Shown: positions 1-6,276 of the stretch, one piece after another | Numbering within the stretch: position 1 is the stretch's first letter | Layout of the letters: each line of letters begins with the position of its first letter | From: Candidatus Omnitrophota bacterium | GTDB taxonomy: Bacteria; Omnitrophota; Gorgyraeia; JAHJTE01 | Assembly: GCA_040753675.1 (NCBI GenBank) | Contig: JBFMEB010000010.1 | Span: 1-60,379, forward strand | Direction: 5' to 3' | Length of the DNA: 60,379 bases | The notes under the pieces: model-generated | Database searches by the model: none | Seen by the model: only the letters and a program-made list of their open reading frames with translations | What the model was told of the DNA's origin: nothing | Program-made: the position numbers and the translations under genes

Positions 1-28
1 AAGTGGTAACGGGGTTTTAGGAGGTTAA

Positions 29-51
29 AAGACACAGAATGATTGTGTCTT
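29..51 (+). terminator. hairpin AAGACACA-GAATGAT-TGTGTCTT, a possible terminator of an upstream gene; uses the CACAGA word
   Basis: 8-bp perfect stem read directly. A weak T-run follows after a few nt (agcaattttt). Confidence 0.3.
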
Positions 52-169
52 AGCAATTTTTGCTCTTTGAAAACAGACGAAAAGTCCTGCTAGTAGAAAA
101 TCAGGGGTTCTCCGACGGTATCATGTAAAAGATATAGTTCTAAACTTCGAACAAATAAGAACAATAAAA

Positions 170-859
170 ATGAGAATCAGAGAAAAGAGCAAAAATAGAA
201 TAAATCCTAGGAAAGGGAAATGTCTCCCTGGCAGAGAAATTATAAAACCCAATTTATGGTCGAACGATTTAGTACATATTATAGCTCATTTCATGTTTGA
301 TGGCAGAGTAAGCAACGACTCCTGTATTTATTATAGTAAAGATATATACCAGATTAACCATATGAAACAGCTTTTATGCAAAATGTTTAGAGCTAAGCCA
401 AAAATCCAATTGCGAGACAATAGTGTTTATGGTTTAACTATTTACCATGTTGAACTTGCTGCTTACATCAGGAGAAGGAAAGAAGAGCTATTTGCATATC
501 TTAATAATGGAGCATCTAAGTTAGAAAAGAGAATTTTTTTAAAAGCTTTTTTTGATGATGAAGGTAATGTTTTTTATAGAGGCGATAAACGTAGGGTGCG
601 CGGGTATCAGAAATCACCTATGCTATTGGAACAAGTGCGTAATTTATTAAGTAATTTTGAGATTGGAAGCAAAATAAATAAAGATGGTACTAATATTGAA
701 GTTTCTGGTTATTGCAATTTAATAAAATTTGCTAATGAAATAAATTTTTCTCCCAAGATTTATATTAATCCAAAGAGAAGAAATGGAATCTGGAAAAAAA
801 GAATTTCAAAAAGAAGAATATTAAGCCTTCTCTTGAAGTCGTATCAGAGGAGGGAATAA
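170..859 (+). CDS. LAGLIDADG-family homing endonuclease, two-motif type, free-standing
   Basis: 229-aa ORF with two LAGLIDADG-like helices ending in acidic-Gly (VHIIAHFMFDGRV and IFLKAFFDDEGNV). Each is followed by the usual S/K-x-x-x-L-L-x-x-V/L scaffold segment. The ORF ends 32 nt upstream of the intron-containing tRNA. Confidence 0.7.
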   Translation: MRIREKSKNRINPRKGKCLPGREIIKPNLWSNDLVHIIAHFMFDGRVSNDSCIYYSKDIYQINHMKQLLCKMFRAKPKIQLRDNSVYGLTIYHVELAAYIRRRKEELFAYLNNGASKLEKRIFLKAFFDDEGNVFYRGDKRRVRGYQKSPMLLEQVRNLLSNFEIGSKINKDGTNIEVSGYCNLIKFANEINFSPKIYINPKRRNGIWKKRISKRRILSLLLKSYQRRE

Positions 860-891
860 GTTTATTTTGTTCTTTGGTAAGAATTGATTAT

Positions 892-1231
892 GGGCCACTA
901 GCTCATCTGGTAGAGCACCACCCTCACGAAGGGGGCACTATTGGGCAACCAATAGTAGCAAATCTTGTAAAGTGCGGGGAGGTCTGGGGTATTTCAAGAT
1001 ACTCAATTTGGATAAAAGTAATAATTCTTGAATGCAGATAATCCGCAGCCAAGCTCTTAGTAATAGAATTCTAAGAGAAGGTTCAACGACTATAATCAAG
1101 ACCTCCAATTTTTAAATTTTTGAGTTACAATTTTTTGTTTTGGAGGATGGGATAGTCTGATCTGCATGGCGACATGCAGTTAACACTAATGTTTAAGGTG
1201 GGTGTGCCGCGTTCGAGTCGCGGGTGGCTCA
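892..1231 (+). tRNA. tRNA interrupted in the anticodon loop by a group I intron; the spliced product reads as tRNA-Lys(UUU)
   Basis: 5' half 892-924: acceptor GGGCCAC, D arm GCTC/GAGC, anticodon stem CCACC plus CU. 3' half 1192-1231: UUUAA, GGTGG, variable GTGTG, T arm CCGCG-TTCGAGT-CGCGG, acceptor GTGGCTC, discriminator A. All four stems pair. The joined loop CUUUUAA gives anticodon UUU. No CCA is encoded. Confidence 0.8.
925..1191 (+). ncRNA. group I intron (IC3-like core), no internal ORF
   Basis: P1 CCCU(921-924)/GGGG(931-934) with a U.G pair at the splice site. P2 937-944/949-956 with a GCAA loop. P3 963-967/1097-1101. P4 974-977/1043-1046. P5 982-986/1035-1039. P5a 993-999/1026-1032. 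AGCCAAG junction, then P6 1054-1060/1071-1077, then GAAGGU. P7 1088-1092/1153-1157. P8 1102-1108/1140-1146. P9 1162-1168/1173-1179 with a GCGA loop. Terminal G at 1191. P10 is UUU of the 3' exon with GAA 928-930. Confidence 0.8.
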
Positions 1232-1233
1232 TA

Positions 1234-1258
1234 TAAATATCAAATATCAAATATCAAA
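1234..1258. repeat. tandem heptamer (A)ATATCA x3 immediately 3' of the tRNA
   Basis: aatatcaaatatcaaatatcaaaaa read directly. The same ATATCAAA word recurs in the 16822 and 54174 elements. Confidence 0.7.
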
Positions 1259-1315
1259 AATTTAAAGCCAGCGACGAAGAACGCGCAAAAGGATAAAAAG
1301 TTTATCTACCTTTTT

Positions 1316-1397
1316 GGGCGGATGGCGGAATTGGCAGACGCGTATGGCTTAGGACCATATGGGGAGACCCTTGGAGGTTCAAATCCTCTTCCGCCCA
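1316..1397 (+). tRNA. tRNA-Leu(UAG), long variable arm
   Basis: Acceptor GGGCGGA/TCCGCCC, D arm GCGG/CGCG, anticodon stem TATGG/CCATA with loop CTTAGGA, 13-nt variable arm, T arm GGAGG-TTCAAAT-CCTCT, discriminator A. Confidence 0.9.
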
Positions 1398-1411
1398 TAG
1401 GTTATTGAATA

Positions 1412-1870
1412 ATGAATAAATTTTTTCAAAGCACACTTAGAATATTTCTGTTGCTGTCCATCATTTTTATTTACTCTAAAGCTTTTTGTGCTGACCGGGG
1501 AGAATCTACATTAGGAGAAGCAGAGAGGGATCCACAACAGATGGCTTCTAATCAAGTTATCCAGGTGCATTTTGATGCTAAGGTGATAGAATTAAATCGC
1601 ATGGAAAGGTCGCCTCTCTCTGGAGAAGAAGGTTACATCATGGATGCTGATCCTAAATGGAAACTTGTTCTGGAGGTACTTCCCCATATGCAAAAGATTC
1701 CCTTTCAGCCAGGTATACGCACATGTTATATAGGAGATCCCGAACTTGTCTTTGGTGTTTCGGCTAAACATGTTTCAGGTAAGTATCGTTTTTCATATAC
1801 TTGGAATGTTGATGTTAGCGGCAAACCAGAATTTACTGATTTTAAGGCAACAAAAATCAAAAATTATTGA
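1412..1870 (+). CDS. hypothetical secreted protein
   Basis: 152-aa ORF with a hydrophobic N-terminal signal-like segment (LRIFLLLSIIFIYSKAFCAD). No family recognised. Confidence 0.5.
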   Translation: MNKFFQSTLRIFLLLSIIFIYSKAFCADRGESTLGEAERDPQQMASNQVIQVHFDAKVIELNRMERSPLSGEEGYIMDADPKWKLVLEVLPHMQKIPFQPGIRTCYIGDPELVFGVSAKHVSGKYRFSYTWNVDVSGKPEFTDFKATKIKNY

Positions 1871-1881
1871 GGAATTAGATT

Positions 1882-2385
1882 ATGGATAAAGTTGCTATTA
1901 TGAATGAAGCTCGGGCAAATTATAGATTTGAACGCGAGGCAAAAAATACAGAAGAAGCGAAGTTATCTTTCGAAAAATATAAAAATGATCCACTTTTTGT
2001 TGCTGGCGTGATGCTTTACTGGGCAGAGGGTACACGTTTAGCTAAATATAGAAAATATCAATTGACCATTACAAACTCTGATCCTGAGCTACTGGAAATA
2101 TACTGTAATTTTGTTCGTAGATACTTTACTGATGTGGATTCAGTCTTCAGGGCTGCTTTGTATATCTATAAAGATATTGATGAATCCAAAGCTAAATTTT
2201 TTTGGTCAAGTCGTTTAAAAATTCCCTTAAATCAGTTTATAAAGACTCAAATATTACCAAGCAGGAGTTTATTAACTAAAACCAAGTTGACTTATGGTAC
2301 TTGTTGCGTATACATAAATAGTAAAGATTATTTATTTACAATGCAGGTTTGGATAGAGAGTGTCTCGAATATTATGCGGCGGTAA
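1882..2385 (+). CDS. putative single-motif LAGLIDADG-like endonuclease
   Basis: 167-aa ORF. FVAGVMLYWAEGT followed by LTITNSDPELLEIYCNFVRRYF resembles a LAGLIDADG helix plus scaffold. The last 10 nt, including stop TAA 2383-2385, lie inside tRNA-Gly. Confidence 0.5.
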   Translation: MDKVAIMNEARANYRFEREAKNTEEAKLSFEKYKNDPLFVAGVMLYWAEGTRLAKYRKYQLTITNSDPELLEIYCNFVRRYFTDVDSVFRAALYIYKDIDESKAKFFWSSRLKIPLNQFIKTQILPSRSLLTKTKLTYGTCCVYINSKDYLFTMQVWIESVSNIMRR

Positions 2386-2448
2386 TTCAGCGGCTAGAAT
2401 GCCTGCTTGCCAAGCAGGATGGCGTGGGTTCAAATCCCATCCGCCGCT
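2376..2448 (+). tRNA. tRNA-Gly(GCC)
   Basis: Acceptor GCGGCGG/CCGCCGC, D arm ATTC/GAAT, anticodon stem CCTGC/GCAGG with loop TTGCCAA, T arm GTGGG-TTCAAAT-CCCAT, discriminator T. Confidence 0.9.
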
Positions 2449-2457
2449 CTTTCTAAC

Positions 2458-2515
2458 GCAGATTATCACAGATTAAATGAAACAGATAAACACAGATATC
2501 AGTGATCATCTGTGT
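2458..2515. repeat. CACAGAT-word intergenic element ending in a hairpin
   Basis: gcagatta, cacagatta, acagataa and cacagata run as direct words, followed by the inverted atctgtgt. Stem ACACAGAT 2490-2497 / ATCTGTGT 2508-2515. Confidence 0.7.
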
Positions 2516-4535: not shown

Positions 4536-6276
4536 AACTATCCAATTAAAAGGAATACCAGCAGCCCCGGGAATTGCGATTGGCATGGTTTATCTTTTCG
4601 GCAAGCCAGATTTGTTATTAGAAAAGATTCCGATCGACGAATCTAAAATCCCCTTAGAGATTGCCCGTTTTGAAGAAGCATTAATCAAGACGCGCAGAGA
4701 AATTATGGATATCCAGAAGAAGATATCCAAAGATATGGGCTCTGCTGGTAGTGAAATATTTGATGCACATCTTCTAGTTTTGGAAGACAGGATGCTTATT
4801 GATGAAGTAATCTCGCGCCTAAAGAAGGAAAAGCTTTGTGTCGAATATATATTCGGTCAGGCGTTATCCAAATATATAAAGGTATTCTCAAAGATTAAAG
4901 ACGAATATTTGCGCGAAAGGGTGTCTGATATTAACGACGTTGCTCGACGGGTTATTCATAATTTAATGGGCAAAAGGCAGAAGGCCCTTATTGATCTTGA
5001 GGAACCTGTCATTGTTGTAGCACATGATCTTTCTCCTTCTGATACTGCAGTGATGCAAAAACAACACGTTATTGCTATAGTTACCGACATCGGAGGCAGA
5101 ACATCCCATACTGCTATTATGGCAAAAAGCCTTCAAATTCCAGCGGTAGTAGGTTTAGAAAATGCTACGCGGCTCTTAAAAAGTGGAGACAGAATTATAG
5201 TTGACGGTGAGGCAGGAATTATAATAATCAATCCAAGCAAAGAGCAGATTAATAAATATACTCAGGAACAACAAAATATTATTAAGTTAGAAACTTTAGT
5301 AAAAGAATATAAAGATTTACCAGCGGTGACTCTGGATGGTAAGAAGATTGCTTTGGCTGCTAATATAGAATTACCAGAAGAAGTGGACTCGGTTATCGCA
5401 CATGGCGCAGAAGGCATTGGTCTATATAGGACTGAGTTCTTCTATATGAATAGGAAAGACCTGCCCACGGAAAATGAGCATTATGAAAGATATCGTGTGG
5501 TTGCTGAAAAAGTGGCACCTGATTCAGTTGTCGTACGCACTCTTGACTTAGGAGGAGATAAATTCTTGTCCGCGTTAAAACTGCCGAATGACATGGTGCC
5601 GTTTTTAGGTTGGCGAGCCATAAGATTTTGTTTGGCTCAACCTGAAATTTTTAAAGTGCAGTTACGTGCAATCTTACGGGCCTCTGCTCACGGGAATTTA
5701 AAATTAATGTATCCGATGATTTCCGGAATAGAAGAATTAAGACAGGCAAACAAACTTCTTGATGAATGTAAGAGAGAATTAAAAAAAGAAAAAAAGGCTT
5801 TTGATGAGAATATCGAAGTAGGAGCTATGATTGAGGTTCCTTCTGCTGCATTGACCTGCGATATTTTGGCTAGGGAAGTAAATTTTTTTAGTATTGGCAC
5901 AAATGACTTGATTCAATATTCGCTCGCCGTAGACCGCAGCAACGAAAAGGTGGCATATCTTTATGAGCCAGCACATCCGGCGGTCTTGCGGTTAATTAAG
6001 ACTATAATTGATACGGCCCATAGAGCAAATATATGGGTAGGAATGTGCGGTGAGATGGCAGGTGAGCCTACTTTTGCAATAACGCTTTTAGGAATGGGTT
6101 TAGATGAATTTAGCGTTTCCACAATTGCCTTGTCGGCAGTTAAGAGAATAATCCGTTCAGTAAGCTTTAAAGAGGCAAAGGAGATTGCCAATACGGTGTT
6201 GACTTTATCTAACGCAAAAGATGTGCAAGATTTTACTAATTCAAAACTAAGAGAGATTCTGGACAGAAAGACATGA
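4528..6276 (+). CDS. ptsI: PEP-protein phosphotransferase (Enzyme I)
   Basis: 582 aa. GGRTSHTAIMAKSL phospho-His motif and a PEP-utilising C-terminal domain (GTNDLIQY, MCGEMAG). Confidence 0.9.
   Translation: MSKTIQLKGIPAAPGIAIGMVYLFGKPDLLLEKIPIDESKIPLEIARFEEALIKTRREIMDIQKKISKDMGSAGSEIFDAHLLVLEDRMLIDEVISRLKKEKLCVEYIFGQALSKYIKVFSKIKDEYLRERVSDINDVARRVIHNLMGKRQKALIDLEEPVIVVAHDLSPSDTAVMQKQHVIAIVTDIGGRTSHTAIMAKSLQIPAVVGLENATRLLKSGDRIIVDGEAGIIIINPSKEQINKYTQEQQNIIKLETLVKEYKDLPAVTLDGKKIALAANIELPEEVDSVIAHGAEGIGLYRTEFFYMNRKDLPTENEHYERYRVVAEKVAPDSVVVRTLDLGGDKFLSALKLPNDMVPFLGWRAIRFCLAQPEIFKVQLRAILRASAHGNLKLMYPMISGIEELRQANKLLDECKRELKKEKKAFDENIEVGAMIEVPSAALTCDILAREVNFFSIGTNDLIQYSLAVDRSNEKVAYLYEPAHPAVLRLIKTIIDTAHRANIWVGMCGEMAGEPTFAITLLGMGLDEFSVSTIALSAVKRIIRSVSFKEAKEIANTVLTLSNAKDVQDFTNSKLREILDRKT

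What the first reader, a model, noticed from the sequence alone, without database searches (positions are those of the whole stretch)
170..2448. tRNA islet with two free-standing LAGLIDADG-type genes, one ending inside tRNA-Gly
Within 2.3 kb the order is: a two-motif LAGLIDADG ORF (170-859) ending 32 nt before the intron-bearing tRNA-Lys, then the ORF-less group I intron, tRNA-Leu, a secreted hypothetical, then a probable single-motif LAGLIDADG-like ORF (1882-2385). The stop codon and last 10 nt of that last ORF are part of the tRNA-Gly acceptor stem and D arm. Homing endonuclease genes are normally inside introns or inteins. Here they sit immediately 5' of tRNA genes while the intron is empty. 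Possible explanations: the endonuclease gene was displaced from its intron but still acts in trans as endonuclease or maturase; it homes to tRNA-flanking sites; or it has been domesticated. All three are inference. The ORF/tRNA overlap means the mRNA 3' end and the tRNA 5' processing site (RNase P) coincide.
Basis: partly seen in the sequence, partly recalled or inferred. Interest (0 to 1): 0.65.

Follow-up and report, generated by a model that had tools for sequence, protein, structure and literature searches.

The report
Selfish endonuclease genes abutting tRNA genes
In a chromosomal tRNA cluster of a Candidatus Omnitrophota bacterium, a genuine LAGLIDADG homing-endonuclease gene paired with a self-splicing intron in tRNA-Lys, and a second gene from a large unannotated family, each belong to families that sit right against one particular tRNA gene in almost every related locus examined (67/67 and 79/82), so tRNA genes appear to act as landing sites for selfish DNA.

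Summary
ORF1 (170-859) is a true two-domain LAGLIDADG protein by Pfam, AlphaFold2 and Foldseek (I-DmoI and intein endonucleases). It lacks the N-terminal HTH that its ~281-aa relatives carry. Its family is tied to tRNA-Lys(UUU). In 67/67 evaluable Patescibacteria loci the tRNA lies directly upstream, and in 39 of those the ATG follows with no gap. [quoted passage not shown] Six sister loci keep a relic 5'-exon copy upstream of the gene. This matches collaborative homing, so far described only in phages. ORF2 (1882-2385) could not be shown to be LAGLIDADG: Pfam, hhalign and Foldseek/PDB were negative, and only weak hints remain. It belongs to a family of at least 3,583 clusters, mostly HTH plus an unannotated "LYWAEG" domain. 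In 79/82 loci this family lies directly 5' of a same-strand tRNA gene, and the tRNA partner is clade-specific. Its stop codon is U8-A9-A10 of tRNA-Gly. The two genes are distributed independently and sporadically, both are under purifying selection (dN/dS about 0.13), and the locus is mosaic. The best reading is two tRNA-targeted selfish endonuclease-type genes. Nuclease activity is inferred, not shown.

The parts
29..60 (+). Terminator-like hairpin with a T-run, inside sequence (1-121) unrelated to any relative. It replaces the 5' (HTH-coding) part of the ORF1 gene.
   Evidence: hairpin 29-51 plus tail; homology to relatives starts at nt 122; no match elsewhere.
122..169 (+). In-frame remnant of the family's linker region (HVKDIVLNFEQIRTIK), upstream of the first available start codon.
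170..859 (+). ORF1: two-domain LAGLIDADG homing-endonuclease gene, HTH-less truncated copy. Motif 1 IIAHFMFDG is at nt 278-304 and motif 2 LKAFFDDEG at nt 539-565.
   Evidence: Pfam LAGLIDADG_3 at 8.4e-11. AF2 pLDDT 91.6 with a double alpha-beta-beta-alpha-beta-beta-alpha topology. Foldseek: TliVMA intein endonuclease 1.2e-9, I-DmoI 1.5e-8. D44 and E131 are invariant across the family. dN/dS 0.13.
867..877 (+). Conserved spacer motif TTGTTCTTTGG between the ORF1 stop and tRNA-Lys. Function unknown.
   Evidence: present, or present as a close variant, in 8 of 11 sister loci.
892..924 (+). tRNA-Lys(UUU) 5' exon (positions 1-33).
925..1191 (+). ORF-less group I intron inserted between U33 and U34. 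It ends in G1191.
   Evidence: Rfam 83.9 bits. In 12 sequences, 38 of 95 predicted pairs show compensatory changes and the P1 U33-G wobble pair is invariant.
1192..1231 (+). tRNA-Lys(UUU) 3' exon.
1315..1398 (+). tRNA-Leu(UAG).
1412..1870 (+). 152-aa ORF with a signal-peptide-like N-terminus. It is absent from all sister loci and is probably a passenger in the same mosaic segment.
   Evidence: 30 representatives at E<=1e-3.
1882..2385 (+). ORF2: HTH-less member of the 'LYWAEG-domain' family that sits 5' of tRNA genes. The motif GVMLYWAEG is at nt 2005-2031, GAGGA lies 8 nt upstream of the ATG, and the stop codon lies inside tRNA-Gly.
   Evidence: AF2 pLDDT 92. dN/dS 0.12-0.13.
2376..2449 (+). 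tRNA-Gly(GCC) of 'type A' (D-arm AATTC...GAAT). Positions 1-10 also encode the end of ORF2.
   Evidence: Allele comparison.

Best explanation
The islet is a housekeeping tRNA cluster. In relatives the order is frr - tRNAs - ptsN. Two unrelated selfish gene families and one self-splicing intron have colonised it independently.

(1) ORF1. ORF1 belongs to a family of HTH + double-LAGLIDADG endonucleases whose genomic address is the tRNA-Lys(UUU) gene. [quoted passage not shown] Sister genomes still carry a relic copy of the 5' exon upstream of the gene. The inserted unit is therefore [endonuclease gene + second 5' exon + ribozyme]. Inferred mechanism (collaborative or trans homing): the enzyme cuts intron-less tRNA-Lys(UUU) genes in the anticodon region. 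The intron interrupts that site and protects the host copy. Repair from the donor copies the intron, and also the endonuclease gene when the upstream exon copy or flank is used for pairing. In this clade the cassette is now inherited vertically. The window's copy has lost its HTH and its upstream expression signals, so it may be a decaying or weakened copy.

(2) ORF2. ORF2 belongs to a very large unannotated family, usually HTH + 'LYWAEG' domain, that is inserted exactly at the 5' border of a same-strand tRNA gene. Inferred: it is a free-standing homing-type endonuclease that recognises the tRNA gene. It is transcribed together with the tRNA. It borrows U8-A9-A10 of tRNA-Gly as its stop codon, so RNase P processing would leave a non-stop mRNA. 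Only unprocessed precursor could then yield full-length protein.
For: ORF1 is a LAGLIDADG enzyme: with the catalytic D and E invariant.

Linkage to tRNA-Lys(UUU):
- 65/70 Patescibacteria loci have an intact tRNA-Lys(UUU) upstream, with gap 0 in 39 and within 6 nt in 51.
- Two more (L018, L024) have an upstream tRNA-Lys carrying a group I intron at 34/35.
- The other three loci start at a contig end.

All 14 distinct Omnitrophota-type ORF1 loci (15 with the window) carry the intron, at 79-110 bits.

Relic 5' exon copies of 24-33 nt lie upstream of the gene in L004, L005, L011, L013, L014 and L017. In L013 the copy ends exactly at the intron insertion site.

The ribozyme is under structural selection.

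Both families are sparse but widely spread: about 100 genome hits for ORF1 across many Patescibacteria lineages, and none for either family in viral contigs.

ORF2 family:
- 79/82 loci have a same-strand tRNA starting -39 to +66 nt from the stop: Gly(GCC) 66, Arg(UCU) 4, Thr(UGU) 3, Lys(CUU) 2, Pro(UGG) 2, Met 1, Gln 1.
- The tRNA partner follows the protein clade.
- The -10 overlap recurs in 14 loci.
- Presence/absence polymorphism: L004, L005, L009, L010 and L011 have tRNA-Leu and tRNA-Gly but no ORF2.
- Mosaicism: the window's tRNA-Gly is 92-95% identical to that of loci whose ORF2 is only 46-51% identical, but 73% identical to that of its nearest relative L004, whose ptsN is 92% identical.

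Purifying selection acts on both genes.

The long forms of the ORF2 family share an N-terminal HTH module with the ORF1 family (hhalign 97.9%).

The collaborative homing concept is taken from PMC3984707 and PMC6083498.
Against: - No nuclease activity, cleavage site or mobility event has been observed.
- ORF2 matches no known nuclease fold or profile. The only hints are weak BFVD hits to intein and homing-endonuclease proteins (E 0.1-1).
- Most Patescibacteria copies sit next to an intron-less tRNA-Lys(UUU) whose anticodon stem varies widely. How those hosts escape self-cleavage is unexplained, and an anticodon-arm target is not proven.
- Within Omnitrophota, ORF1 identity tracks ptsN identity (88/92, 67/67, 64/64, 68/67). 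That means long vertical inheritance, which also fits a host-beneficial role.
- The window's ORF1 lacks the HTH, a Shine-Dalgarno sequence and a promoter, and it follows a terminator-like hairpin.
Confidence: 0.5

Rival explanations
1. ORF1 is kept as a maturase or domesticated splicing cofactor. The LAGLIDADG core binds the adjacent group I intron RNA in trans and helps it fold, as I-AniI and the bI3 maturase do. Because tRNA-Lys(UUU) is essential, gene and intron are then locked together. Homing is no longer its function.
For: - 100% co-occurrence of ORF1 and the intron in 14 distinct Omnitrophota-type loci plus the window.
- ORF1 identity tracks the housekeeping gene ptsN.
- dN/dS is 0.13.
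- The window copy keeps an intact LAGLIDADG core after losing the DNA-binding HTH.
- The bI3 maturase and I-AniI are among the structural matches.
Against: - Most of the family (65 Patescibacteria loci) sits next to intron-less tRNA-Lys genes, where no maturase is needed.
- Both catalytic acidic residues are invariant, whereas pure maturases usually lose them (own knowledge).
- The intron scores well as a complete group I ribozyme with a conserved core, and small bacterial tRNA introns generally self-splice (PMC3984707).
Confidence: 0.2
2. The ORF2 family consists of tRNA-operon-linked DNA-binding regulators (HTH proteins), or factors coupled to tRNA processing, and not nucleases. The adjacency would reflect co-regulation with the downstream tRNA.
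For: - The only recognisable domain in the family is an HTH, and sources annotate members as XRE-type regulators.
- No nuclease profile or fold match was found.
- Purifying selection acts on the gene.
- Synteny with tRNA-Gly-ptsN is stable in many Omnitrophota.
Against: - The Omnitrophota forms, including the window's, have lost the HTH but keep the conserved core with invariant E49.
- The gene is absent from close relatives that have the same tRNA cluster.
- Different clades attach to seven different tRNA species.
- ORF2 and tRNA-Gly histories are discordant.
- Reading into the tRNA to find a stop codon looks like an insertion scar rather than a designed operon.
Confidence: 0.22
3. ORF1 was originally encoded inside the intron, in the P1 loop directly after the 5' splice site. 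A duplication of the 5' exon next to the ribozyme core then externalised it. The upstream exon copy is the original exon.
For: In L013 the upstream copy is a perfect 33-nt 5' exon that ends exactly at the splice site and is followed 11-16 nt later by the ORF. ARAGORN can pair it with the downstream 3' exon across the ORF.
Against: - The free-standing state behind an intron-less tRNA-Lys is the norm in Patescibacteria.
- In L018 and L024 the gene lies outside a compact intron, after the tRNA 3' end.
- The L017 relic may extend past the splice site into 3'-exon sequence (TTTAAGG), as expected from an intron-less ancestor. That reading is ambiguous.
Confidence: 0.15
4. The arrangement has no special meaning: ordinary hypothetical genes happen to lie in a tRNA cluster.
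For: tRNA clusters often contain small ORFs.
Against: The same tRNA-specific adjacency recurs in 67/67, 14/14 and 79/82 independent loci across phyla.
Confidence: 0.02

Closest known systems
Collaborative (trans) homing: free-standing F-CphI with the ORF-less psbA group I intron of cyanophage S-PM2, and MobE/I-TevIII in T-even phages (PMC6083498, PMC2790892, PMC3984707)
   Same: [quoted passage not shown] The intron is proposed to protect the host allele, and the endonuclease to mobilise the intron.
   Different: - This case is in a cellular chromosome, not a phage.
- The target is a tRNA gene.
- The enzyme is an HTH + LAGLIDADG protein, not an Endo VII or HNH enzyme.
- A relic duplicate of the 5' exon flanks the gene.
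- The cassette is vertically inherited within a clade.
- Cleavage at the intron insertion site has not been tested.
SegB, the free-standing GIY-YIG homing endonuclease in the phage T4 tRNA gene cluster (own knowledge; SegB and tRNA genes also discussed in PMC13096335 and PMC2988022)
   Same: A free-standing homing endonuclease gene is embedded among tRNA genes and is inherited together with them ('intronless homing').
   Different: It belongs to a different enzyme family and is phage-borne. It shows no nucleotide-precise junction with one specific tRNA species.
I-Ssp6803I, the endonuclease encoded in the tRNA-fMet group I intron that targets the anticodon region (Bonocora & Shub 2001, cited in PMC3984707)
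   Same: [quoted passage not shown]
   Different: There the gene lies inside the intron and the enzyme is of the PD-(D/E)xK type. Here the gene lies outside the intron and is a LAGLIDADG enzyme.
I-DmoI and intein-associated LAGLIDADG endonucleases (PDB 2vs7, 7qsu)
   Same: Best structural matches for ORF1: a monomeric two-domain LAGLIDADG fold with one acidic residue per motif.
   Different: ORF1-family proteins carry an extra N-terminal HTH (lost in the window copy). They are neither intron-encoded nor intein-encoded.
WhiA (a domesticated LAGLIDADG + HTH transcription factor)
   Same: It combines a LAGLIDADG scaffold with an HTH, and it appears among the Foldseek hits (ranks 44-49).
   Different: WhiA has lost the catalytic acidic residues, has a C-terminal HTH and is universally conserved (all own knowledge). 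The ORF1 family keeps D and E, has an N-terminal HTH and is sporadic.
tRNA punctuation of mitochondrial transcripts (own knowledge)
   Same: mRNA ends are defined by excision of the flanking tRNAs. The 'tRNA-Lys|ATG' junction in Patescibacteria and the ORF2/tRNA-Gly overlap imply the same logic.
   Different: This is a bacterial chromosome. In the ORF2 case, processing would destroy the stop codon rather than create one.

Membership tests
LAGLIDADG homing endonuclease (ORF1) | Profile match to a LAGLIDADG family | tested here: met
   Pfam PF14528 LAGLIDADG_3, E 8.4e-11, 42.4 bits against a cut-off of 22.5.
LAGLIDADG homing endonuclease (ORF1) | Two alpha-beta-beta-alpha-beta-beta-alpha domains packed through the motif helices | tested here: met
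   AF2 pLDDT 91.6 with the expected order of secondary-structure elements. Foldseek: I-DmoI 1.5e-8, TM 0.65; TliVMA intein endonuclease 1.2e-9.
LAGLIDADG homing endonuclease (ORF1) | A catalytic acidic residue at the end of each motif helix | tested here: met
   D44 (FMFDG) and E131 (FFDDEG) are invariant in 40 sequences.
LAGLIDADG homing endonuclease (ORF1) | Site-specific double-strand cleavage of an allele lacking the gene, followed by copying of the gene into it | not testable with these tools
   Only indirect evidence is available: a fixed genomic address at tRNA-Lys(UUU), a sparse but wide distribution, and relic exon duplications.
LAGLIDADG homing endonuclease (ORF2) | Profile match to a LAGLIDADG family | tested here: not met
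   No Pfam, NCBIfam or PHROG hit to the core domain in ORF2 or in 41 family members. The hhalign match to the ORF1 family (97.9%) comes from the HTH only.
LAGLIDADG homing endonuclease (ORF2) | LAGLIDADG fold | tested here: inconclusive
   - AF2 model has pLDDT 92.
- Foldseek/PDB: best E 3.8e-3, TM 0.34, to OmpA-like proteins and no LAGLIDADG protein among the 50 best hits listed.
- BFVD: non-significant hits enriched for intein and homing-endonuclease proteins (E 0.1-1, probability up to 0.9, rmsd 3.9 A over 119 columns).
- The element order alpha-beta-beta-alpha-beta-(alpha)-beta-beta-alpha is compatible if a helix is inserted.
- The hhalign positive control (ORF1 domain 1 against domain 2) reached only 7.7%, so the negative profile result carries little weight.
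LAGLIDADG homing endonuclease (ORF2) | Motif helix ending in an acidic residue followed by Gly | tested here: met
   G42, L45, Y46, W47, E49 and G50 are invariant. The helix spanning residues 37-49 ends at E49. The spacing of G42 differs from the canonical motif.
Group I self-splicing intron | Covariance-model match to the conserved core | tested here: met
   RF00028: 83.9 bits in the window and 79-110 bits in 14 distinct sister loci.
Group I self-splicing intron | P1 helix with a U-G wobble pair at the 5' splice site, a terminal G, and exons that join into a functional gene | tested here: met
   The U33-G pair is invariant in 12/12 sequences and the neighbouring pair covaries (C-G to U-A). 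The intron ends in G1191. The joined exons are called tRNA-Lys(UUU).
Group I self-splicing intron | Structure maintained by compensatory changes | tested here: met
   38 of 95 predicted pairs show changes on both sides.
Group I self-splicing intron | Autocatalytic splicing | not testable with these tools
   No RNA data are available.
Collaborative (trans) homing system | [quoted passage not shown] | tested here: met
   Window 170-859 next to 892-1231. The same layout occurs in 14/14 sister loci.
Collaborative (trans) homing system | The endonuclease target coincides with the intron insertion site, and the intron blocks cleavage | not testable with these tools
   Suggestive only. Two different introns (33/34 in Omnitrophota, 34/35 in L018 and L024) interrupt the same loop next to the same gene family. 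Relic exon copies end at or near position 33.
Free-standing homing endonuclease gene (ORF2 family) | Optional gene at a fixed site beside a conserved target gene, with presence/absence alleles | tested here: met
   79/82 loci lie at the tRNA 5' border. ORF2-less alleles exist in L004, L005 and L009-L011.
Free-standing homing endonuclease gene (ORF2 family) | Endonuclease activity on the empty site | not testable with these tools
   No recognisable nuclease domain was found.

The most novel reading that the evidence does not exclude
The ORF2 'LYWAEG-domain' family has at least 3,583 clusters and no domain annotation beyond an HTH. It could be a previously unrecognised class of mobile endonuclease, either a new fold or an extreme LAGLIDADG derivative, that homes to the 5' border of specific tRNA genes. 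Together with the tRNA-Lys(UUU)-bound LAGLIDADG family, this would make tRNA gene borders a general, nucleotide-precise landing site for homing genes in uncultivated bacteria. Their expression would be gated by tRNA processing. RNase Z would create a nearly leaderless mRNA at the 'tRNA|ATG' junction, and RNase P would remove the stop codon of ORF2.
Probability: 0.35. Interest if true: 0.8.

Novelty: new variant of a known kind. Interest (0 to 1): 0.66.

Why it matters
Collaborative homing, in which a free-standing endonuclease cooperates with an ORF-less intron, is the proposed route by which mobile introns arise. So far it is documented only in a few phages.

This locus shows the same architecture in bacterial chromosomes. 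It sits on an essential tRNA gene, across at least 15 Omnitrophota-type loci. Relic exon duplications record how the cassette was built, and relatives in Patescibacteria represent the free-standing state.

The ORF2 family is an unannotated group of several thousand clusters with an almost absolute positional rule: it lies directly 5' of one tRNA gene, and the tRNA partner is clade-specific. Assigning it a function would annotate thousands of 'XRE-like regulators' and could supply new sequence-specific DNA enzymes.

The overlaps with tRNA ends also offer a simple test of how tRNA processing and translation compete on a single transcript.

Tried and rejected
- ARAGORN intron mode found the split tRNA but set the intron borders wrongly (called Val). 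I fixed the borders by hand and verified them on the joined exons.
- Sequence searches of ORF1, ORF2 and the ORF2 family profile against PDB sequences gave nothing significant.
- The hhalign match between the ORF2 and ORF1 families (97.9%) looked at first like proof of LAGLIDADG ancestry. Trimming showed that the score comes from the N-terminal HTH, which the window's ORF2 lacks. The positive control showed that the method cannot link even two true LAGLIDADG domains (7.7%).
- A profile search for bridging relatives returned only HTH-annotated proteins.
- I tested whether Patescibacteria loci carry tRNA-Lys fragments downstream of the gene, as a mirror of the Omnitrophota relic. No consistent duplicates were found.
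- I considered that the unusual D-arm of the window's tRNA-Gly is an immunity variant linked to ORF2. I rejected this because other ORF2-positive loci have the standard D-arm.
- I considered TTGTTCTTTGG as a -35 promoter box. The spacing to the tRNA start does not fit, and the scan found no sigma-70-like promoter on the + strand.
- A phage origin is not supported: neither family occurs in IMG/VR.
- No public read sets were available for transcript mapping.
- Window 1-121 has no match elsewhere in the window or in any fetched locus. The missing HTH-coding part is not elsewhere in the window.

Full report
**What is there.** The window is a complete 60,379-nt metagenomic contig. Its proteins have their closest relatives in Candidatus Omnitrophota. 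On the + strand the region reads as follows:
- ORF1, 170-859.
- A 32-nt spacer.
- A split tRNA: exon 1 at 892-924, intron at 925-1191, exon 2 at 1192-1231.
- tRNA-Leu(UAG), 1315-1398.
- A 152-aa ORF, 1412-1870.
- ORF2, 1882-2385.
- tRNA-Gly(GCC), 2376-2449.
- ptsN, from 2536.

Rfam scores the intron as group I, at 83.9 bits against a gathering score of 50. ARAGORN calls the joined exons tRNA-Lys(UUU), which places the intron between U33 and U34. ORF2 ends ATG CGG CGG TAA at 2374-2385. The tRNA starts at 2376, so the stop codon is U8-A9-A10 of the tRNA.

**ORF1 is a real two-domain LAGLIDADG protein, but it is truncated.**
- Pfam LAGLIDADG_3 matches at 8.4e-11.
- The AlphaFold2 model has pLDDT 91.6 and shows two alpha-beta-beta-alpha-beta-beta-alpha units.
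- Foldseek finds the TliVMA intein endonuclease (1.2e-9), I-DmoI (1.5e-8, TM about 0.65), I-Tsp061I, PI-PfuI, I-AniI, the bI3 maturase and WhiA.
- In an alignment of 40 relatives, both motif ends (FDG with D44, FFDDEG with E131) are invariant.
- Relatives are typically about 281 aa long and begin with an HTH. In the window, homology starts only at nt 122. Nucleotides 1-121 are unrelated, contain in-frame stops and a terminator-like hairpin (29-51), and match nothing else.
- The window's gene thus lacks the HTH, a Shine-Dalgarno sequence and any promoter-like site.
- Its core is nevertheless intact, and dN/dS against L004 is 0.13.

**The ORF1 family lives at tRNA-Lys(UUU).** I fetched 80 genome loci with relatives.

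*Patescibacteria (70 loci):*
- 65 loci have an intact, intron-less tRNA-Lys(UUU) on the same strand directly upstream.
- The ATG follows the ARAGORN-defined tRNA end with a gap of 0 nt in 39 loci and within 6 nt in 51. The junction reads ...GGGCG(C/G)A-C|ATG.
- Two more loci (L018, L024) have an upstream tRNA-Lys carrying a compact group I intron of about 200 nt at position 34/35.
- The remaining three loci begin at a contig end.

*Omnitrophota-type loci (14 distinct, plus the window):*
- The gene lies between frr and a tRNA-Lys(UUU) that always carries the group I intron after U33.
- Across 12 of these pre-tRNAs, 38 of 95 predicted pairs show compensatory changes. The U33-G wobble pair of P1 is invariant, and the next pair covaries. 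The ribozyme is therefore maintained by selection.

**Relic exon copies.** In L004, L005, L011, L013, L014 and L017, a second copy of the tRNA-Lys 5' portion (24-33 nt) lies 6-56 nt upstream of the endonuclease gene.
- In L013 it is a perfect 33-nt 5' exon that ends exactly at the intron insertion site.
- In L004 and L005 it has decayed to 26-29 nt.
- In L009, L015 and L016 it is gone.

At the DNA level the structure is: 5' exon (relic) - endonuclease gene - 5' exon - ribozyme - 3' exon. This is an insertion into the anticodon loop that contains both the gene and the ribozyme, with a duplicated exon that lets a short pre-tRNA splice normally.

[quoted passage not shown] In that process the endonuclease cuts the intron-less allele at the intron insertion site, and the intron protects the host copy.
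- The same gene family is associated with two different introns at adjacent positions of the same anticodon loop, in two phyla. That points to the anticodon region as the target.
- In a donor, the upstream exon relic would supply the left-hand homology needed to co-convert the gene together with the intron.
- All of this is inference, because no cleavage has been tested.
- Two observations do not fit neatly. Most Patescibacteria hosts have an intron-less tRNA-Lys whose anticodon stem is highly variable, so their self-immunity is unexplained. Within Omnitrophota, ORF1 identity tracks ptsN identity (88/92, 67/67, 64/64, 68/67%). That indicates long vertical inheritance and keeps a maturase or domesticated role open.
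- The free-standing state in Patescibacteria makes 'displaced from its intron' unnecessary, though it is not excluded.

**ORF2 is not demonstrably LAGLIDADG.** Negative results:
- No Pfam, NCBIfam or PHROG model matches its core, in ORF2 itself or in 41 family members. Only HTH models hit, and only the longer relatives.
- The AF2 model is confident (pLDDT 92), but Foldseek finds nothing significant in the PDB. The best hit is E 3.8e-3, TM 0.34, to OmpA-like proteins.
- A profile-profile match to the ORF1 family (97.9%) is due entirely to the shared N-terminal HTH module. With the HTH removed there is no signal. My positive control, ORF1 domain 1 against domain 2, reached only 7.7%, so this negative result is weak.

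Hints in favour:
- An invariant helix end, LYWAEG (E49-G50).
- A near-invariant N65 at +16. The invariant Q147 in ORF1 domain 2 sits at the same spacing after E131.
- A near-invariant K121.
- A compatible order of secondary-structure elements.
- Non-significant BFVD hits enriched for intein and homing-endonuclease proteins.

I rate LAGLIDADG ancestry as roughly even odds.

**The ORF2 family has a striking positional rule.**
- A profile search finds at least 3,583 clusters. Most are 210-240 aa with an N-terminal HTH, and sources annotate them as XRE-type regulators, transposase-like or hypothetical.
- In 82 loci (80 metagenomic, L001 and the window), 79 have a same-strand tRNA gene starting between -39 and +66 nt from the stop codon.
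- The partners are Gly(GCC) 66, Arg(UCU) 4, Thr(UGU) 3, Lys(CUU) 2, Pro(UGG) 2, Met(CAU) 1 and Gln(UUG) 1. The partner follows the protein clade.
- The -10 overlap, in which the stop codon is tRNA U8-A9-R10, occurs in 14 loci.
- The Omnitrophota forms (165-190 aa) have lost the HTH and always sit before the tRNA-Gly that precedes ptsN.
- Close relatives of the window (L004, L005, L009-L011) have tRNA-Leu and tRNA-Gly 27-292 nt apart, with no ORF2 and no remnant of it.
- Among the sampled loci, none but the window carries both ORF1 plus intron and ORF2.
- ORF2 identity does not track ptsN identity (73/60 against 49/70%).
- The window's tRNA-Gly is 92-95% identical to the tRNA-Gly of loci whose ORF2 is only 46-51% identical. 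It is 73% identical to that of L004, whose ptsN is 92% identical. The segment is therefore mosaic, as expected around a recombination-prone insertion.
- dN/dS is 0.12-0.13.
- Neither family occurs in IMG/VR viral contigs.

**Interpretation for ORF2.** A gene that is optional, under selection, and clade-specifically attached to the exact border of a conserved gene behaves like a free-standing homing endonuclease gene ('intronless homing', PMC3984707). The closest precedent is T4 SegB in the phage tRNA cluster (own knowledge). I therefore favour a tRNA-gene-targeted endonuclease of unrecognised type. The main rival is an HTH regulator coupled to the tRNA operon. The HTH-less Omnitrophota forms, the absence alleles and the discordant histories all weigh against that rival.

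**Expression logic (inference from established RNA processing).** No sigma-70-like promoter or intrinsic terminator lies on the + strand inside 170-2450, and the genes are tightly packed, so a common transcript with the tRNAs is likely. RNase P cuts at tRNA position 1, which is 7 nt upstream of ORF2's stop codon. The processed mRNA would therefore be a non-stop message, and only unprocessed precursor could yield the full-length protein. In Patescibacteria, the 'discriminator-C|ATG' junction implies that RNase Z or 3' trimming would release an almost leaderless mRNA. No public RNA data were available to test either point.

**Novelty.** I found no paper describing either association. PMC8172020 notes only that CPR tRNAs often carry group I introns and that homing endonuclease genes occur in rRNA spacers. 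I classify the finding as a new variant of known kinds: collaborative homing and free-standing homing genes. The ORF2 family carries the largest potential for something new.

Noticed in passing
L019-L086 (e.g. L037:2738-2815, L026:2759-2836): In Patescibacteria, the ATG of the ORF1-family gene follows the tRNA-Lys(UUU) gene with a 0-nt gap in 39 of 65 loci. The junction reads GGGCG(C/G)A-C|ATG. This implies a nearly leaderless mRNA released by tRNA 3' processing.
   Followed up: partly
L018:2501-2769 and L024:1413-1700: Two Patescibacteria loci carry a compact (about 200 nt) group I intron at position 34/35 of the tRNA-Lys(UUU) that precedes the endonuclease gene. The position and the intron both differ from the Omnitrophota case. 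Rfam gives 54.5 bits in a local search.
   Followed up: partly
window 867-877: The motif TTGTTCTTTGG lies between the ORF1 stop and the tRNA-Lys 5' exon. It is conserved, exactly or as a close variant, in 8 of 11 sister loci. Its spacing does not fit a sigma-70 promoter for the tRNA, and its function is unknown.
   Followed up: partly
window 1412-1870: A 152-aa ORF with a signal-peptide-like or lipobox-like N-terminus is absent from every sister locus but has about 30 representative homologues (E<=1e-3), some as domains of larger proteins. It appears to be a passenger inserted between tRNA-Leu and ORF2.
   Followed up: partly
window 1237-1257: A short AT-rich tandem repeat (ATATCAA, three copies) lies just after the tRNA-Lys 3' exon. 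The spacer to tRNA-Leu is unrelated to that of the nearest relative, L004.
   Followed up: no
window 1315-1398 versus L004:5258-5339: The tRNA-Leu(UAG) acceptor stem differs between the window (GGGCGGA...) and its closest relative L004 (GCGGACG...), although the rest of the tRNA is nearly identical. This is further mosaicism within the islet.
   Followed up: no
L004:5490-5513 and 5593-5616: The 3' end of tRNA-Gly and its trailer (GAATCCCGTCTCCCGCTCTGGAAT) are repeated about 100 nt downstream with one mismatch. This resembles the scar of an element that once integrated at the tRNA 3' end.
   Followed up: no
L089:2483-3079: In this locus the ORF2 homologue reads on to 198 aa, and ARAGORN detects no tRNA-Gly before ptsN. 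The partner tRNA may be deleted or degenerate.
   Followed up: no
window 2490-2515: An inverted repeat (ACACAGAT...ATCTGTGT) lies between tRNA-Gly and ptsN. The scan scores it as terminator-like only on the minus strand.
   Followed up: no
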